From contig NC_135250.1 in NCBI RefSeq assembly GCF_964204865.1, forward strand, positions 6,820,001 to 6,884,000: 64,000 nucleotides of DNA, in the 5' to 3' direction. Position numbers and translations under genes: made by a program. The notes under the pieces are model-generated. The model made no database searches and was not told where the DNA came from. It saw only the letters and a list, made by a program, of their open reading frames with translations. Origin of the DNA: Styela clava. Its lineage: Eukaryota. Shown here in pieces: positions 38,275 through 64,000 of the stretch; the first letter of the stretch is position 1; the number at the start of each line of letters is the position of its first letter.

Positions 38275-40245
38275 CTAACTCATGTTGCTGTAGTTGTCAC
38301 CAGCTTTCAACAAACCTGATGTCGCCTGCACGTTACACAAGACATCTTGAAAAGCGTTGGAATACTTGATGGCTTCGTTTGAAGGGGCGTAAAACATGAA
38401 TGCGGGTTGTCCTCCAGGTATCGTCATGTTAGCTGACAGGGAAGAACCTGTAACGAGCTCATCTTGGAAATGTTGAGTGCCCTTAATATAAGAATTCAAA
38501 TTATTGCACAACGGTATTGTAGTAATTCGTCATATTTTTGTATGTATAGTATATTTTATAAACTTTTCAGATCAAAACTTCGAAAAACAACATACCTAAC
38601 ACTTAACAGGTATAAACTGTCGGGTTTGATTCATGTACAGTTAACATAATGCATGGAAAGAATAAATACGATGGTCAGGATATTCTATTTTGCCTATCAA
38701 ATATATAACATTACATTCACTCTCTGTATCGATTTTGCATATATAAAAATATTGAATGGATGATATTAATATAAACATCTGAAAATACCCTATCCGTGAA
38801 CCAGCGATCGTCATGTGAGGTCAAGGCTAGGTATCCAAGCAACGCAGTTGATGACGTTATCACAACTTCAGCGAGAACAAAAATGCTCATGATAGTTCCA
38901 ATAACTATTCCCATAGATTTGTTCTTTTCATCATAATAATCAACCTAAAATGTGCGAAACTTTTAGAAATTACCAAATGGTTTTCATTTGTCATTTTGCC
39001 TGAAGTTTTGTTCAAATATTCAAGACATTTGATTTGCTATGTTCGAAGCCAATAAGTGACACGGTTTTTAATCATTCCGTCTTATTATACAGCAATATCC
39101 AGATATTATTTATTACTTGAATGGAGCAACATGAAGTGCACGGATGGACACGGTACTCGGATCCAACAATTGCATATGAAAAGTATTACCTCTTGTGCGA
39201 TAGACATTGTGATTACGGCCATCAGCGATATCGCCATTAAAACAGCAAGCGCTGAACATCCAAATGATATAGCAGCCTAAAAAGTTTAAAAAGACGTACT
39301 AAATTAAAAGTGCCGGAGGAATGAATTATCAGAAATTAAATATTTTCCAAATACAAACCACAAATCTGTCTTTTCGTTTGTAAGCAATAATAACGCCGAA
39401 ACCGCTTAGCAATATCTGAAACAAAAGTACAAAAGAAAATACCAATTTAATGTCAATTTACTATTGTCAATACCCACAAAATAATTCTCTAAGTTTAAGT
39501 TGTTTCCACACCTGAGGTATTGGCTAAAACTTTGATAACGTTATAAGCGAGCTTGTGTTCTTGCGCTCAGTATTTTTTTTTATGAAATCCATAGTGCTGT
39601 ACAAAGCATAATATATACTCACCAGAAGTGAAATCCAAACAGGAACACCGGGTGCACCAAGGAAAGATGGCGATGGAGAAGTCAATTCTTTAAATTGGCA
39701 GAAGATTGCAAGTAAATCAAGTATAATCAACATCACCCCTAAAAAAATCATTTAAACCATATCGCTTATGTCGTCTGCACATCTAGTTTAATTAGCGAGA
39801 CTAACTACAGTATATGGGTAGAATATTTCATGCCGTATTTTAACAGGTGGGAGGGACTGAGAGAATAATTGTTGTTAAAGAAAGGGTTCAAAAACGCGTG
39901 ACAAATCAAATGCAAGTCAACAGTTCTGACGATTGAATTTGGTTTTTGCCCTGAAGTCACTAGGAATTCACTGACTCTGTGACAATATGCTCTAAAAATC
40001 AAACCCGCGGTCCATATGACAACCTAATTGCGCCAAAATATTTTGTAAATATGGACATAAAAATAATTATTCCTGATAGATTAGAACTACCTACCGCACC
40101 CGGCCTGCGCTATTCCAAACGTCAAAATCTTAGGGCTCTGATTAAATTGCACTGTATCCCCTGGTCGCATAACACGAAGATACCATATCTGAAAACTTGT
40201 ACAATATGTGTCGCAACATCCAGGATCCACTGATATTTCCGACAT
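38275..40245 (-). CDS. MS4A: MS4A/CD20-like four-TM protein, copy 1 (full-length, 257 aa)
   Basis: Exons 40095-40245, 39623-39738, 39359-39415, 39190-39276, 38789-38944, 38275-38481 in phase. Family-like motifs FGIAQAGCG (TM1), GVPVWISLLILLSG (TM2), hydrophobic TM3, FVLAEVVIT (TM4); 68-aa last exon. Confidence 0.82.
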
Positions 40246-40398
40246 TTTTAGTCCAAGTTAGTAATCTGATCTTCAGTTGTTTGTAAATTGTGGAATGTCG
40301 ATATCGGCGAATAGTAATCACAAATTGTTCAGAAAAACAAAAACAAAAAACCTCTAAATTGCTTTTAAAAATCAAATTGAAGCTATATTTTCATTTAT

Positions 40399-40419
40399 GA
40401 AATAGAAACGCTGACGTCA
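40399..40419. promoter_or_regulatory. Adjacent IRF-like (GAAATAGAAAC) and perfect CRE (TGACGTCA) motifs ~160 bp upstream of the MS4A ATG
   Basis: Direct motif match; also present at 51602-51622 and 63912-63932. Confidence 0.4.
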
Positions 40420-41288
40420 CTTACGGAGACAATCACACAGAACATTATTGTTGTACAGAATGGGGTACTTGAAAATCAAAAGCAGTGTTTTCATTCCACG
40501 TAGAACCTCAGAAATTAGGTTTTCTTCATAAGATAGTATCGTAATCTACATGTACGTCAATGGTGCTCAATTCAATGTAAGTTATGTTTCGTAGAAATGT
40601 TTCATTCTTACGATAGAACTGAAAGCACTTCAGGTAACTTTCAGGTGTCTTCAAGTGTCCATAATAAACGTAAGTAGAATATTTCACACATAAATAATAT
40701 TGGTGTAATTGAACGAGTAATAATCACGATTACTCACATATGGAGGTATTAGAAAATGAAGTGTTTATTTCCAGTATAATTATTAAAAATCTACATATTG
40801 TAAAAAGAGCATGTTTTTTTGCTTCGCCATAAGTATGCATAAAAATGCCGCTTTTATTAATAGATTTAGCTTATCGCTTTCCTGAAAATCAATATTTGTC
40901 CATTTATCAATTCAAAAAAATAATAGTTTAGGACAAAACAAGACAGGGAGGCTCAAATTAATAGACACAGAGGTCAAATGACTAGTATCAAAGTGACTAA
41001 CTTCGGATAAACTGACCCTATTTTCAACGATATTTCCACAATTTATTGTTAAAATACGACAGAATATCCATCCGTATGTAAAGTGCGATGATGCAGAATC
41101 TAATCGCCTGGGTTACGCAATCGCCTGATGTCCCTGAGCTACAGCAAAAGTCTGGTCATCTACTTTTTCAATATCCTCAACATTGTATAACATCAAATTA
41201 CATATATATATATATTAGATATAATATCCAGTTAATATGTAAATACAAGTAAATACAATTGGTTAACAAATATTTAGACATCAGCAGT

Positions 41289-43591
41289 TTAGTAAGCGAT
41301 TGTTTCTGGCATGCTGAATTTATGACAACCGGATAAGTACAGGGGAAATGCGCTCCAGCCACCACCGATAGTAACAAGCTTGTTGTGAACTCGTAGAATG
41401 TCTTCTGCAGCGGGATGTGGATTACGACTGTAAACCCATGCATGCTTTGGACCTAAAAAGAGAGAATTGGAAAGCGTTTATAATGTTACATTGTCCATGT
41501 AGAATAATCGACATTAATAAAATCGATCGATTTAAAATGGCAAAGCTTCTCACTTCTTCAATCAAATCGATCATGAAGTTGTCAGTTTTGATTTCATCAA
41601 TGGCAAACGTGATTTTCACCATACTATTTTGAAAAGAGTACAATTTGATGAATGTTTCGAATTATAGGTCTATAAACATCTGTGTCAATGTTTATAGGAA
41701 ATGTTTTCGTGGTGTCAAAGGTCGGCAAAACATGCACTCTATCAACAGATGACAACGAACGATCAGGTTCGGTGATCGATTTTATAAAAGGTAATTGCGA
41801 ATCGAAATATCTTCCCAATAATGAAAATCCGACGTTTTTAAATAAATCTTCCACGCGACGCTTGAAGAACCTATTTAATAACATGATAATATACGGACAT
41901 TTGATTGAATTGCAGCTGAAAGTGTTCAGCTAAATTCAATACTGACCTTCTTCACCACACTGCAAGCACATGAAATAATGCTCATAATCTGTGAAGCAAC
42001 TCATCCGATGCTCATAAGCGTATCGAATCTCTGCATAACAAAAAAGTAGGTATATTTATTGATACGTTTCTTCATTAAGAGTCCAACATCTTGTTTTAAA
42101 ATAATATTTATCACCAAAGGCAGGGCAAATTAGGCATTTACGGACTAAGCAATGGGTGTATCTTCCCGGCTAATCCAAAAAATGGCACTTAAAAAAAGAT
42201 TAAAAAAATTTATCATTGTTATATTCATTTTGAGTTACATTTTGAATTTTTGTTATGATTGGCTCATTATATATATTTGCTACATAGTTGTTTTTGAAGT
42301 ACATCTGATTTGATAAATTTTTTATCTAGAATAATTTTTAGCAATGTGAATTATAGTGATAATAATAGTTATCATAAAATGAAAGGTATCATTAAAACAT
42401 TTTACCTTCCAAAACATGTTCATCTGCTCCGTTATGTTTTGCCCCATTCAACCACAATAATTCTATAAAAAATAATCATTTGTTATAAAAGTTTAAAATA
42501 CTTCAAATATAAATTTAATAAGTAGAACATTTTACGTGCCAAAACGTGTGTCGTATCTTGTGATTGAAGTTCCATTTTGATACCAACGGAATGGTATGAC
42601 TTCGTTGATTGACATTGTACCTCTGCATAGAAAAATCATGTTAATCGTAAGCCCTTACACAAAAAGCTGAAACTTTCATTTGTAACTTCCTTTATTTCAG
42701 TCGTGAAACATTTATTTATAAAAAATATAACGTATACCGCTCCCGTTATTGGTTTATCGGATACCCGGTGGATCAATTCCCTGCGTCTGCAGAATTCGTT
42801 CTACTATTATTTGTTACACCAGTTTGTCGGATGTTACAACTTTTATAAATCTCAAACTCAGAAAATATCGGACATATTTCTTCTGAGAAAAATGATAGAT
42901 TTATAGTCCTGATTAGGGTACAAACATAACTCAATCCGTAAAAAACTCAATACTAACCGGGCGAAAACGTTAAAAGCAATAATACGTCGGTATGTTTCAT
43001 TTTGATCTTAAAGTCAAGCCATTTCACCTATCTCTATCGTCCGAATCTATTCGCTATTGTCAGTTGTTAACACCAGTTAACATACTTATTTAACTTTCAT
43101 AATTCCGAAGACCTATTGGGCAGTCCATACCAAAACAGATTAGTAACCTTTTTACAATAAATTATTTATGTATATAAAATTATTTACTTTTCCGCTGATG
43201 AAATATCCTGAAATTCTCCAAAAATTCCGTCGAGAGTTTCTTTGAAATACTTGAACGCATAACACGGCACACCGCGTTCAAGTGGATCATTGGTGTTCAG
43301 TATGTGATACCAAGAATCAGGAAGCTGGAATATGGTGATACAAGATTTTTACAAAAGAAGCTGGAAAATTGAATGATACAGCTGGTGGCGCAATCAAACC
43401 CTTTCAGTCGTCACGTAATTTTCGTTCAACTCAATTCAATAATTTTTATGAATGCTCACCATATTATAATTGACTTCATCAAAAACGGGCAACGCGCAAT
43501 TTTCGTTTTCACGACGGTATCCTGGTTTTCCAACTGTCGGATTGAACAACAAGCAAACTATCAAAATGGAGACACAGCTTAAGAAGATCAT
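41289..43591 (-). CDS. Secreted lipocalin (ApoD-like), copy 1
   Basis: Exons 43460-43591 (signal peptide MIFLSCVSILIVCLLFNPTVG..CALPVF), 43188-43324 (LPDSWYHI, SCR1-like), ~42536-42622, 42406-42462, 41947-42030 (FTDYEHYFMCLQC, SCR2), 41289-41452 (HAWVYSRNP, SCR3; terminal Cys). Splicing between 43188 and 42462 is not fully resolved. Confidence 0.72.
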
Positions 43592-45981
43592 TGTTACTCG
43601 TTAGACTGTCTTCAGCGAAATGATGAAATATGCTCAGATAAAGCAATATTAAATCGGGAATGTAGGCAAAAGGAAGTACTTCTCCACGTTTTTCTCACCT
43701 GCTGCTTAGCATGCAATGCACTACGCACGTTTCCACTGCATGTTCAGCCTATGCAATATCAAATTGCAGACGTTATGAGATTCTCTGTATGTCAATAAAT
43801 CATTCTTTTCAATTCAGGCAAAGATAAGTCAAGATAGAACAAGGAGAGATGCTCAAGGATATGGACTCAAACCATCCTAAAATACTTGCACACAAATCAC
43901 TACCTTCAAAGTGCCTAACTTCGTATGAAGGACTTAATTTCAAGGTAGCGTCACCATCTTAAATCCGTTTTAAATTTACCGAATGATATATTTATTTGCT
44001 CGCATTTTATTTAAGAAATGTCGCTTTTTACCCGTGGTTAAAATGCATTCGAAATAACTCCCATTGGCGACATAATGCAATGATATTGATTGATGTTTTC
44101 TAAAATGTCATTCACATCATGGTATTTGTCTGCTTAACCTAAAACGCTAGAAACTCTCACAAATGAGGCTTGTGGACTCGTTGTCGCATGCATATTAGTG
44201 CAACCGACCACCGACTAAGTCAATAAAAATAGATTGGACAAGCGTGGCATACCAAGTGGTGGCGCAACGTACGCAAAACCAGCCCAACAACAACAATTTG
44301 GAGAAAATCGAGTTTCACCGGAAGATCCGCACGTAAAGTGATGCAGAATCCGGTATCTACCTCGGCCGCACTATTGCTGTCGCCTAAAAAATCTTCACGA
44401 AAGTCGAAGTATGGCCGGCTGCTTAATCTACGATTAACCGTATGAGTCAAACTGATACACACTTCAGACATGGTCCCAACCCAACAACTTGTGTTTTTTG
44501 CTAATGAAAACTTGTGTTTTTTGCTTTTAACAAGATTTATGAAAAGATATTGTTCCGGCTTTGTTCAAATTCATCACGATTATTGCGTTAATTTTCGATT
44601 CTCTTAACATTGTATAACATTAATTACCAGTGGCGGCGCGTCAATAGGGCCAACCGGGGAAATGCCCCGGTTGTTTTTTCGATATAATAAAAAATATTTG
44701 AAAAATACCTCAATATCGGTTGCACCAATGACATTAAACAACATGATGCGCAACTCCGGCATTTTTGGCCGAAGATCGTATTCGATAACACGCTCCAATG
44801 CACATACTTTACGAGACGAGAACGAGCGGATGTGTGCTGTTTTCAAGGCATGGCACGAATGGTGTTCGTGCCTGCTTTGACAGTTGTTGTCGACTTTAAT
44901 GATATTTTGGAAAGTTGAGTTAAAAAAAAATCGGAAAAAGGTAAGGTAAATACTATTGTTGTATATCACACCCGGGCATCGCACTGTTAGGTGCATGTGG
45001 GAAAGCCAGCTTTTTCAAATACTACAAAGTTATTAATTCAGTACGGTACGTAGTTGCCCATTTGCCGAAATTGCATATTTACTTACCCCTTATGGTTTCA
45101 AATAGTTCATGTACCTCCATTTAGATTTTTCTAACCAATGGGGATATTTACGTATTGCTGTAACATACTATTGCTCAATCACTTTTATTTGCGTATTGAT
45201 TCAAAGGGTTAACAAGTTCACCTAACATTTCACCCATTCCGGTCTATATTGTATAGTATGATCTCTCAAGTATATGAAGCCACGAATGCCTGTAATTTTT
45301 GGACTAAACCCCTTCATTAGTTGGTTTATATACCAAATTCAGTAAAACATTTTTTACACTTAACATGAGATATTGGATTTATTAACTTTTCCATTTTAAA
45401 TCATATAGACTGCTTTAAATATTCTTGACGAAAATTAATAAATCTCCTCTCTTTCTTCAGATGTGAATGTTGTGGACAAATCTGTATAAGCATTGTGAGA
45501 TTCCTGTAGCACAAGAGGCAATAGCAAAAATAGTAAGAATATCAATCAAGAAATTAAGTCGACATAGAGCAAAACTTTCAACTATTCGTCTAACCTCAAT
45601 TTCCCATTATTTATTCACAAGACAACTGTAGCAGACGGGGAGATATCAGAAGTATGGCGAAATATAAGTGACAGTGTGATTGCAAGAAATACAATTAGAG
45701 TACTCCATGAGTGTTTGCAATAGAAGAACAACCTATGGAGGCATGCAAAGACATTTGACCCTCCGGTAGAGTTGTGTATGGGTTTTATTTGTAAAAAGGC
45801 ACAAAACACGCCAGACATACTGAAAACAGCTTTGGAAATGTAGATTATGGGTCACTCACTACACCATGTTAGAATTGGTTCCATAAAATTTTGGTAGTAC
45901 TATAGAAGAAATTCAGGGAAGGGTATAATCATGATTCATGATAAAATACTGTTCAATAATTTGGACAACTTCAATATAGAC

Positions 45982-47150
45982 CAGGGATGTCAAACTCGCG
46001 GCCCCAGAGAACTTCCAGTGCGGCCCTCGAACGCTAAACAATAATTGTAATAGATTTTTGAAAGTGTTTTTTTTTTCTAAATGTAAAAGATTTTTCCAAT
46101 TTTTTGAAGTGAAATTGATTATTCACGCAAAAAACAATTTACTGAAAGTAGTTTTGGAAAATTATTATTTTTTTGTTCACATTTTGACCCAATTAAGAAT
46201 TTACAAATTAAGCTAGCAAAAGAATACTTGAATAAAACATTTGAGTGGATAAATTAAACGCAAAGTACATAAAGAAGGTGGCATTTTCGAAGAAAAATGG
46301 GAGTTACAATATTTCTGCATTTCTCAAAATTCTGAAGCACATTGTTTTTGTTTTGTCATATTTCCATCAGTACAATGAAATAACACAATAAACTCAGCAG
46401 TCAATATGACAAATTCAAAGACCAACTTCGAACAGAAAATTTCCATGCGTTTGTATATTAATATAATTATACAACGACTTAGTTTACTAAAAATCAATAT
46501 CACCAATAATTCAATGCCACGCAATGTGGCGCAAAATTTCTTGTCAAAAAATTCTGTCATTTGTTTGTTTACTGATCTATACGCTTTCTTGCATTACTGG
46601 AATTAATTAAACATTCTCGCAGATCCATATTAACCCATGATCATGTGACCTCGTTAGTTACTATAAGAGTCGGTACTATAAAATCATTTCAGCCTGGCCT
46701 TAGTATGCTGGTGACACAAAAAAGTTGTCAAACGTCAGGACAAATGTAATTGAGTAAACATTGAGTTTATACTACAGTATTTTGGTTAATTTTAGGTCCA
46801 TATATTTAGATTAAGTCATTCTTAGTGTATGTATCATTCTTTTCCTATCCAAAGCTTGTTCAAAAATGATTTTGATGGTTGTTCATAGAATTTTATGATT
46901 TTTTTGTAATAAATACAGTAACTTGCAATAATAGTGGAATGCAAATATTAATATTTAATTGCATTTGAAATTAGAGAAAATAATAGAACTTAATCCAACT
47001 GTTTAATTGCATCACAATATATGTCACAAACTAAAACTATCTTAAAAATATCTTTTAAGTATACATTATCAAAAACTGTTTGCGGCCCTTTTTACAATTT
47101 CCGAAATGCGATGCGGCATATGGTATGACTTGTATTTGCTGTCACGATGT
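45982..47150. mobile_element. Nested, decayed Charlie-type hAT element
   Basis: Left end cagggatgtcaaactcgcggcccc..gcggccctcg; degenerate right end tgcggccc..gatgcggc near 47080-47150; no clear TSD. Confidence 0.45.
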
Positions 47151-47389
47151 ATTATCTCAATGTGTCAAACTTTTAATTAGTGTGCATATTTTGCTTCCAG
47201 GTAACATGAACGTATTGTCTTGTTTATTACCTCAGCTTGGAGTATTGACAAGAAAAAGGTGCCAGTAAATTACTTAAAAATTTTTTCAACTCTTTGTTAT
47301 AATCTGAATTCACAATTAATGGGAAATATAAACAGCCAACAATCAATGAGAACTATATGCAAAATTCCTCAGATTAAATTTGTCTTCTA

Positions 47390-47900
47390 AAATCGGAGGA
47401 AGGCAAAACATATAGGTAGTTTCCATTCATACAAGTCTTTCAAGAAGACTTGCTCGAGCCAAACTAAATGAGCATCATCAGGTGATCGGTAAGGCTGCAA
47501 GTTGAATTCAGCCCTGCAACCTCCTGCATAGACGATAATATTAATTAGTGGGCTATGAGCTAAATTCCTAAATTTAGACACAAACATATCTACGAGGCAT
47601 TATGTACCATCAATGTTAACTACGATAAAATGAATATGTAATATGTCTAATAAACTCACCTACTAAAGCAAATTCGATGGGTGCAAACTTTGTGTTATGG
47701 AATTGTATCACAGCACCGTTAAGAGGAGTATAAACAGTCTTGCTGTTTTGTAAGAAACCCTCTTTAAATAAAATTTCAATGTTCAAGTACAAACATTAAA
47801 ACTAGTAACCTTGAACATTGTCATTATCTGCAAAATGTTCCACACAAATCTTTACACTATCGCGTCTGTAATCTTCTCTGATAATATAAAAACGTCTATG
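47390..47900 (-). pseudogene. P-element/THAP-type transposase relic, spliced fragments
   Basis: Exon-like pieces: ..RDSVKICVEHFADND (THAP CxxHF, ~47810-47880), ..TPLNGAVI (AVP-box-like, ~47660-47762) and NLQPYRSPDDAHLVWLEQVFLKDLYEW (ORF 47387-47587), resembling P-like transposase C-terminal segments. Confidence 0.55.
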
Positions 47901-49603
47901 ATGTCCAGAATTACTCTGCTTAGCTTGTCTGCCATTCCAGCTTTCCAAGTGAGCAAAACTTCTTAGATTTAATGATTATTTTCTTTCGTCACAGGCGCAA
48001 AAAGGCAGATACTACACGTAAAGAAGTCGCCGAGTAGCAAAAGCGAATGGGAAACGGTCTCGAAAGGCGACGATAACTATGTGCATTGAAGCGTATCATG
48101 AAATACAATCTTTCGCGTGTAGTCTTATGGAGTGACGTCAGAGTTGCCCATCATGTTGTTAAATGTCATTGGTTGCACAGACTGTCTACACTAGCCATAT
48201 TCTCCCGACACGGTTCATTTTTCGCTCGCAAAGCCTTCGCCGAACGTCGACGGGGCGACGCCGATTTTGCCCCGGTTGCTCATTGTATATCGTATTCTCT
48301 CTTTTATCTTCCACTCGCCGTGTTTGTCTCGTTTGTTTTCTGTTTCTTTTACTAAATCATCGGGGCCGATCGGGGCTAGCCCCGAAATTATGACGACACA
48401 ATGCCGACGTTTCTTACAACAACGTGTTGACATATTCACGCATTCCTTCTCGTTCGTTGGCTGCTTGAAGAGTTGATAGTTTCCTCGCCTTCGTTTTTGT
48501 CGCTTGTTTCGCTATTTGAATCAGTTAGAGACCTTTAGTCCATTTGCTTTCGATTTTCCACATTCCTTTTGAGTTCCTCACTTCTTTCCGGCGTTATTTC
48601 TGGGATGCATGACTTTAATCAGCGCGTTATTGAGAATTTTGCTTCCAAGAAACCGCGGCGTGTTGCATATATGTTCAAGCAGTAGAAGTCTAGCAGCATA
48701 TATATCTATGCGTGAGCGACGCATGTCCTTATCTTTGCATTAACTTTCCTTTCTTCATAGTAACGTTTTAAACCTTATTTTAGGTTTTGTCTGCTTTCCC
48801 GAAGTTTCTGTTAATATGTCATTGTATTTATCTGGGTAAATATTGCCTTTCCTTTTGAAAGAGGTTTCAAAATAAACTATGTCTATATTTATTAATCCCT
48901 TGACTTGGACCGGTTTTTATAGACACTTTCTTATCGTTAAAAATTGTCGCTTTTGCCGATTGGTTGTTACCGATGGAATGGTTTTATACTCATAAAATGA
49001 TGGGAGAACTTACAGCGCTCATCCTGTCCCCGTAGATGGGGATGACTTGGTCCCGCAGTAGCTTGCCCCGGTTGTCAAAATGACCACGCGCCGCCACTGT
49101 TAATTACATATATTGGAGATGATATTGTGAAATTGAACACAATGTGGAACGCACCTTGTGGCTACTGGGACAAATTGTATTATCGTACCATTTTGTTTCT
49201 TCTTCGTGTCCATATATTTGAGCATCGCTCTCCTATAATAATTGTTTGATAATCGTAAACGCCTTTCTCTTTAAGTTTTGTGTGATGACGTCATCAAAAT
49301 AAAAATTGCTTGACGTGGTTCCGTGATCAGATCTCGGTGATTTAATGGTCAGACTACTGTAAAAGTGTTTAAAGATTGAAATTTTCAATTCACGTTGAAA
49401 CTGAGTCAGGAAAAATGGATCATCGTTGCATGACCCGGAAAGCCACGACAGCCCCTTTACCGCTATGGCACCGCGATACAGGTACTTTTTTTCGAGATAT
49501 AAAATTTCATTCATATATAATTTCACCAAAGGAAAACTTGATTTTTACTAGTTGGAAAAGAGTACAATTTGGTGAATGTTTCCCGGAGGTTCGAGTTCTA
49601 TGT

Positions 49604-51448
49604 CTATGTGTAGGAAATAGGTATCGTCATGTTAGCTGACAGGGAAGAACCTATAACGAGCTCATCTTGGAAATGTTGAGTGCCCTTAATATAAGAATTC
49701 AAATTATTGCACAACGGTATTGTAGTAATTCGTCATAGTTTTGTATGTATAATATATTTTATAAACTTTTCAGATCAAAACTTCGAAAAACAACATACCT
49801 AACACTTAACAGGTATAAACTGTCGGGTTTGATTCATGTACAGTTAACATAATGCATGGAAAGAATAAATACGATGGTCAGGATATTCTATTTTGCCTAT
49901 CAAATATATAACATTACATTCACTCTCTGTATCGATTTTGCATATATAAAAATATTGAATGGATGATATTAATATAAACATCTGAAAATACCCTATCCGT
50001 GAACCAGCGATCGTCATGTGAGGTCAAGGCTAGGTATCCAAGCAACGCAGTTGATGACGTTATCACAACTTCAGCGAGAACAAAAATGCTCATGATAGTT
50101 CCAATAACTATTCCCATAGATTTGTTCTTTTCATCATAATAATCAACCTAAAATGTGCGAAACTTTTAGAAATTACCAAATGGTTTTCATTTGTCATTTT
50201 GCCTGAAGTTTTGTTCAAATATTCAAGACATTTGATTTGCTATGTTCGAAGCCAATAAGTGACACGGTTTTTAATCATTCCGTCTTATTATACAGCAATA
50301 TCCAGATATTATTTATTACTTGAATGGAGCAACATGAAGTGCACGGATGGACACGGTACTCGGATCCAACAATTGCATATGAAAAGTATTACCTCTTGTG
50401 CGATAGACATTGTGATTACGGCCATCAGCGATATCGCCATTAAAACAGCAAGCGCTGAACATCCAAATGATATAGCAGCCTAAAAAGTTTAAAAAGACGT
50501 ACTAAATTAAAAGTGCCGGAGGAATGAATTATCAGAAATTAAATATTTTCCAAATACAAACCACAAATCTGTCTTTTCGTTTGTAAGCAATAATAACGCC
50601 GAAACCGCTTAGCAATATCTGAAACAAAAGTACAAAAGAAAATACCAATTTAATGTCAATTTACTATTGTCAATACCCACAAAATAATTCTCTAAGTTTA
50701 AGTTGTTTCCACACCTGAGGTATTGGCTAAAACTTTGATAACGTTATAAGCGAGCTTGTGTTCTTGCGCTCAGTATTTTTTTTTATGAAATCCATAGTGC
50801 TGTACAAAGCATAATATATACTCACCAGAAGTGAAATCCAAACAGGAACACCGGGTGCACCAAGGAAAGATGGCGATGGAGAAGTCAATTCTTTAAATTG
50901 GCAGAAGATTGCAAGTAAATCAAGTATAATCAACATCACCCCTAAAAAAATCATTTAAACCATATCGCTTATGTCGTCTGCACATCTAGTTTAATTAGCG
51001 AGACTAACTACAGTATATGGGTAGAATATTTCATGCCGTATTTTAACAGGTGGGAGGGACTGAGAGAATAATTGTTGTTAAAGAAAGGGTTCAAAAACGC
51101 GTGACAAATCAAATGCAAGTCAACAGTTCTGACGATTGAATTTGGTTTTTGCCCTGAAGTCACTAGGAATTCACTGACTCTGTGACAATATGCTCTAAAA
51201 ATCAAACCCGCGGTCCATATGACAACCTAATTGCGCCAAAATATTTTGTAAATATGGACATAAAAATAATTATTCCTGATAGATTAGAACTACCTACCGC
51301 ACCCGGCCTGCGCTATTCCAAACGTCAAAATCTTAGGGCTCTGATTAAATTGCACTGTATCCCCTGGTCGCATAACACGAAGATACCATATCTGAAAACT
51401 TGTACAATATGTGTCGCAACATCCAGGATCCACTGATATTTCCGACAT
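49604..51448 (-). CDS. MS4A: MS4A-like copy 2, C-terminally truncated by the duplication junction (215 aa)
   Basis: Exons 51298-51448, 50826-50941, 50562-50618, 50393-50479, 49992-50147, 49604-49684; last exon reads GTQHFQDELVIGSSLSANMTIP-ISYT* across the junction. Confidence 0.75.
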
Positions 51449-52491
51449 TTTTAGTCCAAGTTAGTAATCTGATCTTCAGTTGTTTGTAAATTGTGGAATG
51501 TCGATATCGGCGAATAGTAATCACAAATTGTTCAGAAAAACAAAAACAAAAAACCTCTAAATTGCTTTTAAAAATCAAATTGAAGCTATATTTTCATTTA
51601 TGAAATAGAAACGCTGACGTCACTTACGGAGACAATCACACAGAACATTATTGTTGTACAGAATGGGGTACTTGAAAATCAAAAGCAGTGTTTTCATTCC
51701 ACGTAGAACCTCAGAAATTAGGTTTTCTTCATAAGATAGTATCGTAATCTACATGTACGTCAATGGTGCTCAATTCAATGTAAGTTATGTTTCGTAGAAA
51801 TGTTTCATTCTTACGATAGAACTGAAAGCACTTCAGGTAACTTTCAGGTGTCTTCAAGTGTCCATAATAAACGTAAGTAGAATATTTCACACATAAATAA
51901 TATTGGTGTAATTGAACGAGTAATAATCACGATTACTCACATATGGAGGTATTAGAAAATGAAGTGTTTATTTCCAGTATAATTATTAAAAATCTACATA
52001 TTGTAAAAAGAGCATGTTTTTTTGCTTCGCCATAAGTATGCATAAAAATGCCGCTTTTATTAATAGATTTAGCTTATCGCTTTCCTGAAAATCAATATTT
52101 GTCCATTTATCAATTCAAAAAAATACTAGTTTAGGACAAAACAAGACAGGGAGGCTCAAATTAATAGACACAGAGGTCAAATGACTAGTATCAAAGTGAC
52201 TAACTTCGGATAAACTGACCCTATTTTCAACGATATTTCCACAATTTATTGTTAAAATACGACAGAATATCCATCCGTATGTAAAGTGCGATGATGCAGA
52301 ATCTAATCGCCTGGGTTACGCAATCGCCTGATGTCCCTGAGCTACAGCAAAAGTCTGGTCATCTACTTTTTCAATATCCTCAACATTGTATAACATCAAA
52401 TTACATATATATATATATTAGATATAATATCCAGTTAATATGTAAATACAAGTAAATACAATTGGTTAACAAATATTTAGACATCAGCAGT

Positions 52492-54794
52492 TTAGTAAGC
52501 GATTGTTTCTGGCATGCTGAATTTATGACAACCGGATAAGTACAGGGGAAATGCGCTCCAGCCACCACCGATAGTAACAAGCTTGTTGTGAACTCGTAGA
52601 ATGTCTTCTGCAGCGGGATGTGGATTACGACTGTAAACCCATGCATGCTTTGGACCTAAAAAGAGAGAATTGGAAAGCGTTTATAATGTTACATTGTCCA
52701 TGTAGAATAATCGACATTAATAAAATCGATCGATTTAAAATGGCAAAGCTTCTCACTTCTTCAATCAAATCGATCATGAAGTTGTCAGTTTTGATTTCAT
52801 CAATGGCAAACGTGATTTTCACCATACTATTTTGAAAAGAGTACAATTTGATGAATGTTTCGAATTATAGGTCTATAAACATCTGTGTCAATGTTTATAG
52901 GAAATGTTTTCGTGGTGTCAAAGGTCGGCAAAACATGCACTCTATCAACAGATGACAACGAACGATCAGGTTCGGTGATCGATTTTATAAAAGGTAATTG
53001 CGAATCGAAATATCTTCCCAATAATGAAAATCCGACGTTTTTAAATAAATCTTCCACGCGACGCTTGAAGAACCTATTTAATAACATGATAATATACGGA
53101 CATTTGATTGAATTGCAGCTGAAAGTGTTCAGCTAAATTCAATACTGACCTTCTTCACCACACTGCAAGCACATGAAATAATGCTCATAATCTGTGAAGC
53201 AACTCATCCGATGCTCATAAGCGTATCGAATCTCTGCATAACAAAAAAGTAGGTATATTTATTGATACGTTTCTTCATTAAGAGTCCAACATCTTGTTTT
53301 AAAATAATATTTATCACCAAAGGCAGGGCAAATTAGGCATTTACGGACTAAGCAATGGGTGTATCTTCCCGGCTAATCCAAAAAATGGCACTTAAAAAAA
53401 GATTAAAAAAATTTATCATTGTTATATTCATTTTGAGTTACATTTTGAATTTTTGTTATGATTGGCTCATTATATATATTTGCTACATAGTTGTTTTTGA
53501 AGTACATCTGATTTGATAAATTTTTTATCTAGAATAATTTTTAGCAATGTGAATTATAGTGATAATAATAGTTATCATAAAATGAAAGGTATCATTAAAA
53601 CATTTTACCTTCCAAAACATGTTCATCTGCTCCGTTATGTTTTGCCCCATTCAACCACAATAATTCTATAAAAAATAATCATTTGTTATAAAAGTTTAAA
53701 ATACTTCAAATATAAATTTAATAAGTAGAACATTTTACGTGCCAAAACGTGTGTCGTATCTTGTGATTGAAGTTCCATTTTGATACCAACGGAATGGTAT
53801 GACTTCGTTGATTGACATTGTACCTCTGCATAGAAAAATCATGTTAATCGTAAGCCCTTACACAAAAAGCTGAAACTTTCATTTGTAACTTCCTTTATTT
53901 CAGTCGTGAAACATTTATTTATAAAAAATATAACGTATACCGCTCCCGTTATTGGTTTATCGGATACCCGGTGGATCAATTCCCTGCGTCTGCAGAATTC
54001 GTTCTACTATTATTTGTTACACCAGTTTGTCGGATGTTACAACTTTTATAAATCTCAAACTCAGAAAATATCGGACATATTTCTTCTGAGAAAAATGATA
54101 GATTTATAGTCCTGATTAGGGTACAAACATAACTCAATCCGTAAAAAACTCAATACTAACCGGGCGAAAACGTTAAAAGCAATAATACGTCGGTATGTTT
54201 CATTTTGATCTTAAAGTCAAGCCATTTCACCTATCTCTATCGTCCGAATCTATTCGCTATTGTCAGTTGTTAACACCAGTTAACATACTTATTTAACTTT
54301 CATAATTCCGAAGACCTATTGGGCAGTCCATACCAAAACAGATTAGTAACCTTTTTACAATAAATTATTTATGTATATAAAATTATTTACTTTTCCGCTG
54401 ATGAAATATCCTGAAATTCTCCAAAAATTCCGTCGAGAGTTTCTTTGAAATACTTGAACGCATAACACGGCACACCGCGTTCAAGTGGATCATTGGTGTT
54501 CAGTATGTGATACCAAGAATCAGGAAGCTGGAATATGGTGATACAAGATTTTTACAAAAGAAGCTGGAAAATTGAATGATACAGCTGGTGGCGCAATCAA
54601 ACCCTTTCAGTCGTCACGTAATTTTCGTTCAACTCAATTCAATAATTTTTATGAATGCTCACCATATTATAATTGACTTCATCAAAAACGGGCAACGCGC
54701 AATTTTCGTTTTCACGACGGTATCCTGGTTTTCCAACTGTCGGATTGAACAACAAGCAAACTATCAAAATGGAGACACAGCTTAAGAAGATCAT
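52492..54794 (-). CDS. Secreted lipocalin (ApoD-like), copy 2
   Basis: Apparently identical to 41289-43591 at offset 11203. Confidence 0.72.
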
Positions 54795-55683
54795 TGTTAC
54801 TCGTTAGACTGTCTTCAGCGAAATGATGAAATATGCTCAGATAAAGCAATATTAAATCGGGAATGTAGGCAAAAGGAAGTACTTCTCCACGTTTTTCTCA
54901 CCTGCTGCTTAGCATGCAATGCACTACGCACGTTTCCACTGCATGTTCAGCCTATGCAATATCAAATTGCAGACGTTATGAGATTCTCTGTATGTCAATA
55001 AATCATTCTTTTCAATTCAGGCAAAGATAAGTCAAGATAGAACAAGGAGAGATGCTCAAGGATATGGACTCAAACCATCCTAAAATACTTGCACACAAAT
55101 CACTACCTTCAAAGTGCCTAACTTCGTATGAAGGACTTAATTTCAAGGTAGCGTCACCATCTTAAATCCGTTTTAAATTTACCGAATGATATATTTATTT
55201 GCTCGCATTTTATTTAAGAAATGTCGCTTTTTACCCGTGGTTAAAATGCATTCGAAATAACTCCCATTGGCGACATAATGCAATGATATTGATTGATGTT
55301 TTCTAAAATGTCATTCACATCATGGTATTTGTCTGCTTAACCTAAAACGCTAGAAACTCTCACAAATGAGGCTTGTGGACTCGTTGTCGCATGCATATTA
55401 GTGCAACCGACCACCGACTAAGTCAATAAAAATAGATTGGACAAGCGTGGCATACCAAGTGGTGGCGCAACGTACGCAAAACCAGCCCAACAACAACAAT
55501 TTGGAGAAAATCGAGTTTCACCGGAAGATCCGCACGTAAAGTGATGCAGAATCCGGTATCTACCTCGGCCGCACTATTGCTGTCGCCTAAAAAATCTTCA
55601 CGAAAGTCGAAGTATGGCCGGCTGCTTAATCTACGATTAACCGTATGAGTCAAACTGATACACACTTCAGACATGGTCCCAAC

Positions 55684-56757
55684 TAGGCTTGCACGTAATT
55701 TACGGATTTACGGAATTACGGAATTATTTCGAGTTACGGAAGCGAAGTTACGAATTACGTAAAGTCGTAATCATTGGTCGAGCGCTTTCGCGATTGAAAC
55801 GAGCTCTCTTCAGAGCAGTCAATTCCCTTGATTGTAAAAAATTAAGTTTAATAAGTAGAAGAAGTTAGAGTTCCGGTATTAGCAGCCGTTTTTCTCTCTC
55901 TTGTTACGCAGGTGGGGAAGGCATAACGCGTTGCCATTTACTAACCTATTAACAACTTATCTAGCATGGCCAAAGTACATATTAACCGTAGATAGGGAAT
56001 AGAATTGTGTTGAGACCGATGGACGCCAACACACCTGGTTTCAACTTCTTCGGGTGAAATGACTAACGAATGTAAGAGATCAACTTATCAAACATGGTCT
56101 ATTTGTAAATGCCGTGATAATTAATGTCGCGCTTATCAAACAGCCATATGACGACGGAAGAGAAATTGCGTAATAAACCAACGCAACTTACTTAAGTAGT
56201 TTTTTCGGCATCGGTAAATCGATTGAGACGGCAGAGAAAACGAAACGACGGGATTTCCCGTGTTTATTCTGCGCGAGAACCATTTTCTATTACAAAGTCG
56301 GATATTGTAAAAAAAACGGTGAAATAACTAGTCTGATTATTAAATTATAAATCTGGAATTTTTATTTAATACGAAAGTCGTATTAATACGTTAATACGAT
56401 TTTAAAAAGTCAACTATCGTTTCATAAATATCCGTATACCAGTGTTGGTAATGATAAAATTGATCGCATGAAATTGGGTGATAAAGGAAAATCAAAACTA
56501 AAACAAAAGATAAAAATCAGAATAAAATTAATTTGAATTCACTCCTTGATATTTGTCTTCAACATATGTCGCCGGCGTGTAGTACTGCCGGGAATATGAA
56601 AACCAAACTTCGATGTCCCATTCGGAATAGAAGTGGATTCAATTGGTTGTTATGATAGGTTTGAATGTGTGAAAAAAATATGGCAATTACGGGGTCATTA
56701 CGTAATCGATTTGGCCGTAATTACGGAATTGATTTTTGTCAATTACGTGCAAGCCTA
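55684..56757. mobile_element. Young hAT MITE, 1,074 bp
   Basis: Perfect 17-bp TIR taggcttgcacgtaatt / aattacgtgcaagccta; perfect 8-bp TSD gtcccaac (55676-55683, 56758-56765); ttacg subterminal repeats; absent from unit 1. Confidence 0.96.
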
Positions 56758-56907
56758 GTCCCAACAACTTGTGTTTTTTGCTAATGAAAACTTGTGTTTT
56801 TTGCTTTTAACAAGATTTATGAAAAGATATTGTTCCGGCTTTGTTCAAATTCATCACGATTATTGCGTTAATTTTCGATTCTCTTAACATTGTATAACAT
56901 TAATTAC

Positions 56908-59900
56908 CAGTGGCGGCGCGTCAATAGGGCCAACCGGGGAAATGCCCCGGTTGTTTTTTCGATATAATAAAAAATATTTGAAAAATACCTCAATATCGGT
57001 TGCACCAATGACATTAAACAACATGATGCGCAACTCCGGCATTTTTGGCCGAAGATCGTATTCGATAACACGCTCCAATGCACATACTTTACGAGACGAG
57101 AACGAGCGGATGTGTGCTGTTTTCAAGGCATGGCACGAATGGTGTTCGTGCCTGCTTTGACAGTTGTTGTCGACTTTAATGATATTTTGGAAAGTTGAGT
57201 TAAAAAAAAATCGGAAAAAGGTAAGGTAAATACTATTGTTGTATATCACACCCGGGCATCGCACTGTTAGGTGCATGTGGGAAAGCCAGCTTTTTCAAAT
57301 ACTACAAAGTTATTAATTCAGTACGGTACGTAGTTGCCCATTTGCCGAAATTGCATATTTACTTACCCCTTATGGTTTCAAATAGTTCATGTACCTCCAT
57401 TTAGATTTTTCTAACCAATGGGGATATTTACGTATTGCTGTAACATACTATTGCTCAATCACTTTTATTTGCGTATTGATTCAAAGGGTTAACAAGTTCA
57501 CCTAACATTTCACCCATTCCGGTCTATATTGTATAGTATGATCTCTCAAGTATATGAAGCCACGAATGCCTGTAATTTTTGGACTAAACCCCTTCATTAG
57601 TTGGTTTATATACCAAATTCAGTAAAACATTTTTTACACTTAACATGAGATATTGGATTTATTAACTTTTCCATTTTAAATCATATAGACTGCTTTAAAT
57701 ATTCTTGACGAAAATTAATAAATCTCCTCTCTTTCTTCAGATGTGAATGTTGTGGACAAATCTGTATAAGCATTGTGAGATTCCTGTAGCACAAGAGGCA
57801 ATAGCAAAAATAGTAAGAATATCAATCAAGAAATTAAGTCGACATAGAGCAAAACTTTCAACTATTCGTCTAACCTCAATTTCCCATTATTTATTCACAA
57901 GACAACTGTAGCAGACGGGGAGATATCAGAAGTATGGCGAAATATAAGTGACAGTGTGATTGCAAGAAATACAATTAGAGTACTCCATGAGTGTTTGCAA
58001 TAGAAGAACAACCTATGGAGGCATGCAAAGACATTTGACCCTCCGGTAGAGTTGTGTATGGGTTTTATTTGTAAAAAGGCACAAAACACGCCAGACATAC
58101 TGAAAACAGCTTTGGAAATGTAGATTATGGGTCACTCACTACACCATGTTAGAATTGGTTCCATAAAATTTTGGTAGTATAATAGAAGAAATTCAGGGAA
58201 GGGTATAATCATGATTCATGATAAAATACTGTTCAATAATTTGGACAACTTCAATATAGACCAGGGATGTCAAACTCGCGGCCCCAGAGAACTTCCAGTG
58301 CGGCCCTCGAACGCTAAACAATAATTGTAATAGATTTTTAAAAGTGTTTTTTTTTTCTAAATGTAAAAGATTTTTCCAATTTTTTGAAGTGAAATTGATT
58401 ATTCACGCAAAAAACAATTTACTGAAAGTAGTTTTGGAAAATTATTATTTTTTTGTTCACATTTTGACCCAATTAAGAATTTACAAATTAAGCTAGCAAA
58501 AGAATACTTGAATAAAACATTTGAGTGGATAAATTAAACGCAAAGTACATAAAGAAGGTGGCATTTTCGAAGAAAAATGGGAGTTACAATATTTCTGCAT
58601 TTCTCAAAATTCTGAAGCACATTGTTTTTGTTTTGTCATATTTCCATCAGTACAATGAAATAACACAATAAACTCAGCAGTCAATATGACAAATTCAAAG
58701 ACCAACTTCGAACAGAAAATTTCCATGCGTTTGTATATTAATATAATTATACAACGACTTAGTTTACTAAAAATCAATATCACCAATAATTCAATGCCAC
58801 GCAATGTGGCGCAAAATTTCTTGTCAAAAAATTCTGTCATTTGTTTGTTTACTGATCTATACGCTTTCTTGCATTACTGGAATTAATTAAACATTCTCGC
58901 AGATCCATATTAACCCATGATCATGTGACCTCGTTAGTTACTATAAGAGTCGGTACTATAAAATCATTTCAGCCTGGCCTTAGTATGCTGGTGACACAAA
59001 AAAGTTGTCAAACGTCAGGACAAATGTAATTGAGTAAACATTGAGTTTATACTACAGTATTTTGGTTAATTTTAGGTCCATATATTTAGATTAAGTCATT
59101 CTTAGTGTATGTATCATTCTTTTCCTATCCAAAGCTTGTTCAAAAATGATTTTGATGGTTGTTCATAGAATTTTATGATTTTTTTGTAATAAATACAGTA
59201 ACTTGCAATAATAGTGGAATGCAAATATTAATATTTAATTGCATTTGAAATTAGAGAAAATAATAGAACTTAATCCAACTGTTTAATTGCATCACAATAT
59301 ATGTCACAAACTAAAACTATCTTAAAAATATCTTTTAAGTATACATTATCAAAAACTGTTTGCGGCCCTTTTTACAATTTCCGAAATGCGATGCGGCATA
59401 TGGTATGACTTGTATTTGCTGTCACGATGTATTATCTCAATGTGTCAAACTTTTAATTAGTGTGCATATTTTGCTTCCAGGTAACATGAACGTATTGTCT
59501 TGTTTATTACCTCAGCTTGGAGTATTGACAAGAAAAAGGTGCCAGTAAATTACTTAAAAATTTTTTCAACTCTTTGTTATAATCTGAATTCACAATTAAT
59601 GGGAAATATAAACAGCCAACAATCAATGAGAACTATATGCAAAATTCCTCAGATTAAATTTGTCTTCTAAAATCGGAGGAAAGCAAAACATATAGGTAGT
59701 TTCCATTCATACAAGTCTTTCAAGAAGACTTGCTCGAGCCAAACTAAATGAGCATCATCAGGTGATCGGTAAGGCTGCAAGTTGAATTCAGCCCTGCAAC
59801 CTCCTGCATAGACGATAATATTAATTAGTGGGCTATGAGCTAAATTCCTAAATTTAGACACAAACATATCTACGAGGCATTATGTACCATCAATGTTAAC

Positions 59901-61379
59901 TACGATAAAATGAATATGTAATATGTCTAATAAACTCACCTACTAAAGCAAATTCGATGGGTGCAAACTTTGTGTTATGGAATTGTATCACAGCACCGTT
60001 AAGAGGAGTATAAACAGTCTTGCTGTTTTGTAAGAAACCCTCTTTAAATAAAATTTCAATGTTCAAGTACAAACATTAAAACTAGTAACCTTGAACATTG
60101 TCATTATCTGCAAAATGTTCCACACAAATCTTTACACTATCGCGTCTGTAATCTTCTCTGATAATATAAAAACGTCTATGATGTCCAGAATTACTCTGCT
60201 TAGCTTGTCTGCCATTCCAGCTTTCCAAGTGAGCAAAACTTCTTAGATTTAATGATTATTTTCTTTCGTCACAGGCGCAAAAAGGCAGATACTACACGTA
60301 AAGAAGTCGCCGAGTAGCAAAAGCGAATGGGAAACGGTCTCGAAAGGCGACGATAACTATGTGCATTGAAGCGTATCATGAAATACAATCTTTCGCGTGT
60401 AGTCTTATGGAGTGACGTCAGAGTTGCCCATCATGTTGTTAAATGTCATTGGTTGCACAGACTGTCTACACTAGCCATATTCTCCCGACACGGTTCATTT
60501 TTCGCTCGCAAAGCCTTCGCCGAACGTCGACGGGGCGACGCCGATTTTGCCCCGGTTGCTCATTGTATATCGTATTCTCTCTTTTATCTTCCACTCGCCG
60601 TGTTTGTCTCGTTTGTTTTCTGTTTCTTTTACTAAATCATCGGGGCCGATCGGGGCTAGCCCCGAAATTATGACGACACAATGCCGACGTTTCTTACAAC
60701 AACGTGTTGACATATTCACGCATTCCTTCTCGTTCGTTGGCTGCTTGAAGAGTTGATAGTTTCCTCGCCTTCGTTTTTGTCGCTTGTTTCGCTATTTGAA
60801 TCAGTTAGAGACCTTTAGTCCATTTGCTTTCGATTTTCCACATTCCTTTTGAGTTCCTCACTTCTTTCCGGCGTTATTTCTGGGATGCATGACTTTAATC
60901 AGCGCGTTATTGAGAATTTTGCTTCCAAGAAACCGCGGCGTGTTGCATATATGTTCAAGCAGTAGAAGTCTAGCAGCATATATATCTATGCGTGAGCGAC
61001 GCATGTCCTTATCTTTGCATTAACTTTCCTTTCTTCATAGTAACGTTTTAAACCTTATTTTAGGTTTTGTCTGCTTTCCCGAAGTTTCTGTTAATATGTC
61101 ATTGTATTTATCTGGGTAAATATTGCCTTTCCTTTTGAAAGAGGTTTCAAAATAAACTATGTCTATATTTATTAATCCCTTGACTTGGACCGGTTTTTAT
61201 AGACACTTTCTTATCGTTAAAAATTGTCGCTTTTGCCGATTGGTTGTTACCGATGGAATGGTTTTATACTCATAAAATGATGGGAGAACTTACAGCGCTC
61301 ATCCTGTCCCCGTAGATGGGGATGACTTGGTCCCGCAGTAGCTTGCCCCGGTTGTCAAAATGACCACGCGCCGCCACTG
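56908..61379. mobile_element. Non-autonomous hAT (Tip100-like) element, copy 2
   Basis: Same TIRs and ttaattac TSD as 44628-49099, so it was copied by the segmental duplication rather than by transposition. Confidence 0.92.
59670..60180 (-). pseudogene. P-element/THAP transposase relic, copy 2
   Basis: Duplicate of 47390-47900 at offset 12280. Confidence 0.55.
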
Positions 61380-61883
61380 TTAATTACATATATTGGAGAT
61401 GATATTGTGAAATTGAACACAATGTGGAACGCACCTTGTGGCTACTGGGACAAATTGTATTATCGTACCATTTTGTTTCTTCTTCGTGTCCATATATTTG
61501 AGCATCGCTCTCCTATAATAATTGTTTGATAATCGTAAACGCCTTTCTCTTTAAGTTTTGTGTGATGACGTCATCAAAATAAAAATTGCTTGACGTGGTT
61601 CCGTGATCAGATCTCGGTGATTTAATGGTCAGACTACTGTAAAAGTGTTTAAAGATTGAAATTTTCAATTCACGTTGAAACTGAGTCAGGAAAAATGGAT
61701 CATCGTTGCATGACCCGGAAAGCCACGACAGCCCCTTTACCGCTATGGCACCGCGATACAGGTACTTTTTTTCGAGATATAAAATTTCATTCATATATAA
61801 TTTCACCAAAGGAAAACTTGATTTTTACTAGTTGGAAAAGAGTACAATTTGGTGAATGTTTCCCGGAGGTTCGAGTTCTATGT

Positions 61884-63758: not shown

Positions 63759-64000
63759 TTTTAGTCCAAGTTAGTAATCTGATCTTCAGTTGTTTGTAAA
63801 TTGTGGAATGTCGATATCGGCGAATAGTAATCACAAATTGTTCAGAAAAACAAAAACAAAAAACTTCTAAATTGCTTTTAAAAATCAAATTGGAGCTATA
63901 TCTTCATTTCTGAAATAGAAACGCTGACGTCACTTACGGAGACAATCACACAGAACATTATTGTTGTACAGAATGGGGTACTTGAAAATCAAAAGCAGTG
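61899..64000. repeat. Tandem segmental duplication, unit 3 (partial, more diverged)
   Basis: Colinear with 38416-~40487 but has many intronic substitutions and indels (7-bp deletion near 62084, insertion near 63520-63550). Confidence 0.95.

What the first reader, a model, noticed from the sequence alone, without database searches (positions are those of the whole stretch)
44473..44485. Apparent hAT excision footprint at the empty site of the unit-2 MITE
Unit 2 has gtcccaac-[1074 bp]-gtcccaac. Unit 1 has gtcccaac+ccaac, i.e. both TSD copies minus 3 nt, not a single target. The offsets agree: 1077 = 1074 + 8 - 5. This is the type of scar hAT excision leaves, so the element was probably lost from unit 1 rather than gained in unit 2. 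With the units otherwise nearly identical, this implies a very recently active transposase.
Basis: partly seen in the sequence, partly recalled or inferred. Interest (0 to 1): 0.7.

Follow-up and report, generated by a model that had tools for sequence, protein, structure and literature searches.

The report
hAT exit scar, cut-and-reseal scars
One of two nearly identical DNA repeats carries the small scar that a known kind of jumping gene likely left when it recently cut itself out, and about one in seven sampled copies of that jumping gene that are still in place carry scars likely made by being cut and resealed on the spot, which would make failed jumps readable from a genome.

Summary
Unit 2 has an 8-bp duplication around a 1,074-bp element; unit 1 has the duplication minus 3 nt. 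Unit 3 and four older paralogs have a single target, so the 5 extra bases are derived. Read contigs hold the scar, filled and pristine alleles. The element is a non-autonomous hAT of Ac/Hermes type: 17-bp TIR, perfect 8-bp TSD in 127 of 161 copies, nTnnnnAn target bias. Loss from unit 1 is the best reading, within about 0.04% divergence. This is ordinary hAT biology. No intact partner transposase was found in a partial search.

A family-wide pattern is the more interesting result: 24 of 161 copies still in place have scarred flanks. The first junction base is the complement of the lost TSD base in 22 of 26 junctions. The lost base itself sits next to the TIR in 19 of 22 (shuffled control 0.29 and 0.27; hold-out 6 of 8 and 5 of 6). 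This fits hairpin cleavage followed by resealing in place.

The parts
44473..44485 (+). Excision footprint in unit 1: two TSD copies minus 3 nt (7+6 or 8+5 parse; one C fits either side)
   Evidence: pristine outgroups; read contigs
55676..55683 (+). Left 8-bp target-site duplication
55684..56757 (.). 1,074-bp non-autonomous hAT element; internal-deletion derivative of a ~1.56-kb subfamily; repeated subterminal hexamer TTACGG
55684..55700 (+). Left 17-bp terminal inverted repeat
56741..56757 (-). Right 17-bp terminal inverted repeat
56758..56765 (+). Right 8-bp target-site duplication
38416..49618 (+). Tandem unit 1 (footprint allele)
49619..61898 (+). Tandem unit 2 (filled allele); chimera: first ~135 bp are unit-3 type, the rest unit-1 type
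49753..49799 (.). Inferred unequal-crossover interval that made unit 2
   Evidence: last unit-3-type SNP at 49752, first unit-1-type difference at about 49800
61899..64000 (+). Start of older unit 3; its copy of the site lies about 3.9 kb beyond the window end and is pristine
44511..44524 (+). About 14 bp copied from just upstream, replacing about 75 bp present in unit 3; shared by units 1 and 2 (56791-56804)

Best explanation
The 13 bp at 44473-44485 are likely the healed donor site of a non-autonomous hAT (Ac/Hermes-type) element, which sits intact at the same target in unit 2 and likely sat there in the common ancestor of units 1 and 2. Shown: unit 3 and older paralogs have the single target; units 1 and 2 differ at 4 places in 11,022 bp; the family makes 8-bp TSDs. 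Inferred mechanism: a transposase supplied in trans nicked one base into each flank and sealed the flanks as hairpins. Host repair opened and trimmed them and joined 7 left plus 6 right target bases, possibly through the one shared C. Inferred from the family survey: the same cut is often resealed without loss of the element. The opened hairpin flank (7 target bases plus palindromic bases) is ligated back to the element end, which still carries the one flank base left by the offset nick.
For: Pristine outgroups. All three alleles in read contigs. TSD length 8 in 127 of 161 copies, none at 9 bp and 1 at 7 bp; T at position 2 in 77 of 127 and A at position 7 in 86 of 127, the Hermes target pattern (PMC10368747 Introduction). 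Junction rule: complement of the lost base first in 22 of 26 junctions, lost base next to the TIR in 19 of 22; hold-out set 6 of 8 (p=0.02) and 5 of 6 (p=0.011); shuffled flanks give 0.29 and 0.27. The focal element is 1.7-1.8% from its nearest copies, far more than the 0.036% between units. Near-identical copies sit at different TSDs: L079/L214 with 0 substitutions in about 1,600 bp, L269/L270 with 1 substitution and 1 gap in 2,330 bp. The hairpin model with a one-base overhang and 1-bp losses or exchanges is in a passage of PMC2921059.
Against: The focal scar has no palindromic bases, so on its own it is compatible with hairpin repair but not diagnostic. No intact transposase with this TIR was found among 75 of 150 scored PF05699 places (1,855 candidates) or among the 161 copies. 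The rule fails at 4 of 26 and 3 of 22 junctions, and 10 imperfect copies could not be parsed. About 6% of random flank pairs parse, so about 2 of the 24 parses may be chance. The 'retained base' rule was formed after seeing sets A-C, so only set D (6 junctions) is a true test. Copies were picked by similarity or by place on contigs C1-C3, not at random. Runs X1-X4 belong to one study and may be the source of the assembly.
Confidence: 0.9

Rival explanations
1. The element was gained in unit 2 after the split, and unit 1 independently acquired a 5-bp slippage duplication at the same pristine target.
For: The extra bases read as a perfect 5-bp tandem duplication next to a short AAC repeat. The family has inserted recently elsewhere.
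Against: No other indel separates units 1 and 2 in 11 kb. Rough chance about 7e-5. A brand-new insertion should have a near-identical donor, but the best is 98.3%; the donor could have been lost.
Confidence: 0.02
2. Units 1 and 2 are two alleles that the assembler placed in tandem (false duplication). The scar is then a heterozygous or somatic excision, not a difference between paralogs.
For: The units are 99.96% alike and unit 2 is a mosaic at its start. In X2 and X3 no filled-junction contig was seen.
Against: In X1 the shared left contig has depth 1,595, while the filled and pristine contigs have 685 and 675 and two longer contigs from elsewhere have about 600. That fits three copies at similar depth. 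Contig depth is a poor copy-number measure, so this is only a hint. Under this rival the site is still an excision scar.
Confidence: 0.1
3. The scars at filled sites come from full excision followed by copying the element back from the sister chromatid or homolog (gap repair) and end-joining to the hairpin-derived flank, not from resealing the cut end.
For: Template-directed repair of donor sites is a known route (PMC5499845 Introduction). It would also give palindromic bases at one side, and 18 of 24 scarred copies are one-sided.
Against: Copy-back should end at varying points in or beyond the TSD, yet exactly one TSD base lies next to the TIR in 19 of 22 junctions. Six copies are scarred on both sides.
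Confidence: 0.2
4. The element was lost by a transposase-independent deletion.
For: A templated deletion-insertion 25 bp away shows error-prone break repair at this locus.
Against: Both breakpoints fall inside the two 8-bp TSD copies and no element base is left. Recombination between the TSDs would restore the single target, not add 5 bases.
Confidence: 0.04

Closest known systems
Ac/Ds, Hermes and TcBuster (hAT) excision footprints (passages of PMC2921059, PMC3499496, PMC3744419)
   Same: 8-bp TSD, loss of one or a few element-proximal TSD bases, complement exchanges and palindromic additions from flank hairpins, nTnnnnAn target bias as in Hermes.
   Different: Here a natural germ-line record with filled, scarred and pristine states in one tandem array; the transposase is not identified.
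'Self-inflicted wounds' / 'open-and-shut' cleavage of mariner, Hsmar1 and Tdr1 (passages of PMC5224488; Lohe et al. 2000 seen only as a reference)
   Same: Damage at the ends of elements that stay in place, ascribed to transposase cutting followed by repair.
   Different: Those wounds mutate the inverted repeats and follow nicking. Here the TIRs mostly stay intact (134 of 161 copies have a perfect 17-bp TIR pair), and the scar is in the flank, with hairpin-type palindromic bases plus one retained TSD base.
V(D)J open-and-shut joints with P nucleotides (recalled; two papers seen as search listings only)
   Same: A hairpinned flank is rejoined to the end it was cut from.
   Different: A somatic RAG reaction in lymphocytes. 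RAG ends are blunt (recalled), whereas the retained base here implies a one-base offset.
Fused Ds ends and episomal circles from abortive Ac/Ds and Hermes transposition (passages of PMC3470690, PMC2803484)
   Same: Cut hAT ends are ligated by host end-joining instead of integrating.
   Different: End-to-end joints; here the end is joined back to its own flank.

Membership tests
hAT superfamily, non-autonomous element | 8-bp target-site duplication | tested here: met
   127 of 161 copies have a perfect 8-bp TSD; other lengths are at background
hAT superfamily, non-autonomous element | Short TIRs and repeated subterminal motifs | tested here: met
   Perfect 17-bp TIR pair in 134 of 161 copies; 946 exact TIR matches against 0 in the control; 5-10 TTACGG/CCGTAA motifs, mostly near the ends, in 11 of 11 representatives
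hAT superfamily, non-autonomous element | Cleavage through a hairpin on the flanking DNA | tested here: met
   Indirect, from junction sequences: complement of the lost base in 22 of 26 junctions, palindromes up to 7 nt. MULE and Transib also hairpin the flank, so this feature alone is not specific
hAT superfamily, non-autonomous element | A cognate hAT transposase (BED, DDE, dimerisation domain) between the same TIRs | tested here: inconclusive
   None in 161 copies or at 75 of 150 scored PF05699 places. A variant right end (about 78% over 84 bp) lies 3-11 kb downstream of broken hAT transposase pieces at three places on C16, but host-like DNA lies between; all close relatives of that protein are broken
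Ac (Hermes/hobo/Tol2) group of hAT | nTnnnnAn target preference | tested here: met
   T2 in 77 of 127, A7 in 86 of 127; Hermes pattern in PMC10368747. That the pattern marks the Ac group is recalled
Ac (Hermes/hobo/Tol2) group of hAT | Transposase phylogeny places it in the Ac group | not tested
   No cognate transposase to place
MITE (strict sense) | Short, uniform, high-copy, non-coding | tested here: inconclusive
   About 470 copies and no transposase remnant, but lengths of about 1.0-2.5 kb in several subfamilies; the 1,074-bp form has 3 copies. Better called a non-autonomous hAT
Excision footprint | The never-inserted allele has a single target | tested here: met
   Unit 3 and 4 of 4 spanning paralogs
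Excision footprint | Depends on transposase; varied footprints at one site | not testable with these tools
   Only contigs and 6 raw reads cover the site

The most novel reading that the evidence does not exclude
hAT transposases often cut and the host reseals them in place. About 15% of this family's genomic copies carry a fixed signature: 7 target bases, palindromic bases, then the single flank base left on the element end. That is a fossil record of the first-nick position and of abortive excision, the hAT counterpart of V(D)J open-and-shut joints. If general, many 'decayed' TSDs of hAT elements in any genome are such scars, and nick offset and abortive-excision rate can be read from an assembly alone.
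Probability: 0.65. Interest if true: 0.55.

Novelty: new variant of a known kind. Interest (0 to 1): 0.4.

Why it matters
The footprint itself is textbook hAT behaviour and shows only that this family was mobilised recently. The filled-site scars matter more. They give a sequence rule that reports cleavage geometry and failed excision in a natural germ line, with no experiment and no known transposase. The rule can be tested at once on any hAT family, including extinct ones. It also warns that strict perfect-TSD filters drop about one copy in five here (34 of 161), many of them for a mechanistic reason.

Tried and rejected
Search for the autonomous partner. PF05699 in the own genome scored 150 of 1,855 candidates; I inspected 75 of those places and found open hAT frames of other TIR families only. 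One inspected locus, L156, merely neighbours a copy of the element. tblastn of 133 open frames from hAT loci against the 161 copies found only nested other elements. A TIR-variant pattern gave 17 hits (control 6). Three of them, on C16, lie near broken transposase pieces, but linkage is not shown. A protein search with that clade found only broken close copies. The protein alignment was not used further.

A minimal-junction parser misread right-side scars and was replaced; that script also ended in an error before its last step. Duplication by alternative transposition (PMC3744419 passages) was rejected because the unit boundaries are not at the element's ends. Host gene: 27 frames scanned with Pfam gave nothing above a cut-off, and paralog alignments near the site show gaps and no clear codon pattern. 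No RNA holder was listed. No filled-junction contig was seen in X2 and X3; contigs cannot show absence.

Literature: 10 searches found no description of hairpin scars at hAT elements that stay in place. Subscription papers are not searched, three key papers were not held (PMC4105704, PMC109017, PMC6212770), and no supplements were read, so prior description is not excluded.

Full report
Observation. The 8-mer GTCCCAAC occurs three times in the window (44473, 55676, 56758), and the 13-mer at 44473-44485 once. A 1,074-bp element with 17-bp inverted ends fills 55684-56757. Units 1 (38416-49618) and 2 (49619-61898) align with one 1,077-bp gap and 7 other difference sites. The 13 bp can be parsed as 8+5 or 7+6 target bases.

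Polarity. Unit 3 continues beyond the window and has the single target. So do the 4 of 4 older paralogs (65-80% identical) whose alignments span the site; nine further hits did not span it. The 5 extra bases are therefore derived. A chance slippage at this spot is about 7e-5 under my own rough rates. The element is 98.2-98.3% identical to its nearest copies, which is much older than the split of units 1 and 2, so it likely predates that split.

History of the array. At the first three difference sites (38450, 38535, 38549) unit 2 matches unit 3; from about 49800 on it matches unit 1. I infer an unequal crossover between older units 1 and 3, which are 96-99% alike. In the unit-1-derived part, 4 events in 11,022 bp give 0.036% divergence (95% interval 0.010-0.093%). 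The excision happened after these two lineages split, either before or after the crossover.

Reads. All runs but X16 are contigs. The scar allele is spanned with no difference in X2 and X4, with 22-25 letters on the shorter side, below the tool's 31-letter bridging standard. It also shows as a loose end in X2, X3 and X4. The filled left junction is in X1 (depth 685) and X4 (13.5) and was not seen in X2 or X3. The pristine allele is in X1 (675) and in 3 of 6 reads of X16, a different study. No scar contig was seen in X1. Depths in X1 fit three copies, but this is weak evidence, and X1-X4 may be the assembly's own source.

The family. The TIR has 946 exact matches in the 377-Mb genome (control 0). 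I collected 161 non-redundant two-ended copies: set A 27, B 41, C 50, D 43. Loci with only one end were dropped: 38, many of them single-end views of copies counted elsewhere, and 3 of the 60 set-D loci, of which 14 more were repeats. Of the 161, 127 have a perfect 8-bp TSD, with T at position 2 in 77 and A at position 7 in 86. This is the Hermes pattern (PMC10368747, Introduction and passages). Copies are mostly 1.0-2.5 kb; the focal one is an internal deletion of a ~1.56-kb form. No transposase remnant lies inside. Two pairs at different targets are almost identical (L079/L214, L269/L270), and 15 of 161 have a neighbour at 99.5% or more. This supports recent mobility, though gene conversion could explain a pair.

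Scars at filled sites. Of 34 copies with imperfect TSDs, 24 parse (18 one-sided, 6 two-sided; 30 junctions, 15 left and 15 right) and 10 do not. Where 7 target bases remain and other bases follow, the first is the complement of the lost base in 22 of 26 junctions, extending to a 7-nt palindrome in L023. Where the junction allows the test, the base next to the TIR is the lost TSD base in 19 of 22. Shuffled flank pairs parse in 6% of 34,796 trials and give 0.29 and 0.27. The first rule was noted on set A and held in B+C (9 of 11). The second was noticed after seeing A-C. With the parser frozen, new set D gave 6 of 8 (p=0.02) and 5 of 6 (p=0.011).

Mechanism. Shown in print: hAT transposases cut the non-transferred strand first and hairpin the flank (passages of PMC6900584; PMC5499845 Introduction and passages). 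The cut has a one-base overhang and repair gives 1-bp losses or exchanges (passage of PMC2921059). Kat1 cuts mostly 1 nt from the TIR (passage of PMC4763223). TcBuster footprints carry complementary additions (passages of PMC3499496). That Hermes leaves the one flank base on the element's 5' end is recalled from Zhou et al. 2004, which I did not read. Inferred here: at the focal site both ends were cut, the element left, and trimmed flanks were joined as 7+6. At the filled sites the opened hairpin was ligated back to the element end that still held its one flank base. One-sided scars do not prove one-ended cleavage, because the other end could have been resealed perfectly. Copy-back from a sister chromatid is the main rival; it does not readily explain exactly one retained base.

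Transposase. Not found. I inspected 75 of 150 scored PF05699 places, out of 1,855 candidates. Long open hAT frames belong to other TIR families. A variant right end lies downstream of broken hAT transposase pieces at three places on C16, but host-like repeats intervene. The close relatives of that protein on C6 and C18 (BED, DUF659-like and dimerisation domains) are interrupted. So present-day activity is not shown.

Comparison and novelty. The footprint is an ordinary hAT footprint. End damage at elements that stay in place is known for mariner-type elements as 'self-inflicted wounds' or 'open-and-shut' cleavage, but there the inverted repeats are mutated (passages of PMC5224488). Abortive Ac/Ds events known from the papers I saw are fused ends and circles (passages of PMC3470690, PMC2803484); PMC3744419 and PMC3239180 were seen as passages on alternative transposition. 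Ten searches found no account of hairpin scars with a retained base at filled hAT sites. The library lacks subscription papers and three key papers, so this is not proof of novelty. Earlier scan notes, unchecked, describe empty-site hAT scars in other genomes and pogo scars in an array of this genome, which they call a sea squirt; none matched the filled-site idea or this element.

Verdict. Observation confirmed; interpretation supported, with 'very recent' bounded at about 0.04% divergence and no enzyme in hand. Confidence in excision 0.9; in resealing as the cause of the filled-site scars about 0.7. Interest 0.4.

Noticed in passing
window 44511-44524 and 56791-56804: About 75 bp present in unit 3 are replaced by about 14 bp copied from just upstream, with 2-nt overlaps. 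This looks like polymerase-theta templated repair (recalled). It lies 25 bp from the insertion site and is shared by units 1 and 2.
   Followed up: partly
window 44628 to about 49099: A second hAT element of another family (ends CAGTGGCGG, 8-bp TSD at 44620-44627, about 1 kb in unit 3). Full-length relatives with 529-713-aa open frames exist (L136, L137, L139).
   Followed up: partly
window 44726-48171: A 3.4-kb insertion with inverted ends and an apparent 7-bp TSD, nested in that second element and absent from unit 3. Three of the 4 unit-1/unit-2 differences lie inside it.
   Followed up: no
L013-L020: Among the focal element's closest relatives, 4 of 7 two-ended copies have imperfect TSDs (3 parse as hairpin scars), more than the family average.
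   Followed up: no
window 41.2-44.6 kb and about 70 kb beyond the window end: An old array of many 65-83% identical paralogous segments in both orientations, with a hint of codon periodicity near 43.2-43.6 kb but no Pfam family.
   Followed up: partly
L125, L126, L097-L099, L094, L101, L102, L109 family: Several other hAT families with long open frames and near-identical copies, suggesting many recently active hAT lineages in this genome.
   Followed up: no
L089, L090 (C1:5.55 and 5.60 Mb): Two copies with the same flanks, so a local segmental duplication carries a filled site twice.
   Followed up: no
L072, L062, L055, L092: Copies with nested insertions of other elements, one with a 2,016-aa retrotransposon-like frame.
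   Followed up: no
window 310-1206: A GC-richer tandem repeat array with a period of about 62 bp.
   Followed up: no
window 14737-15171: An exon-like frame with a weak galactose-3-O-sulfotransferase match, below the Pfam cut-off.
   Followed up: no
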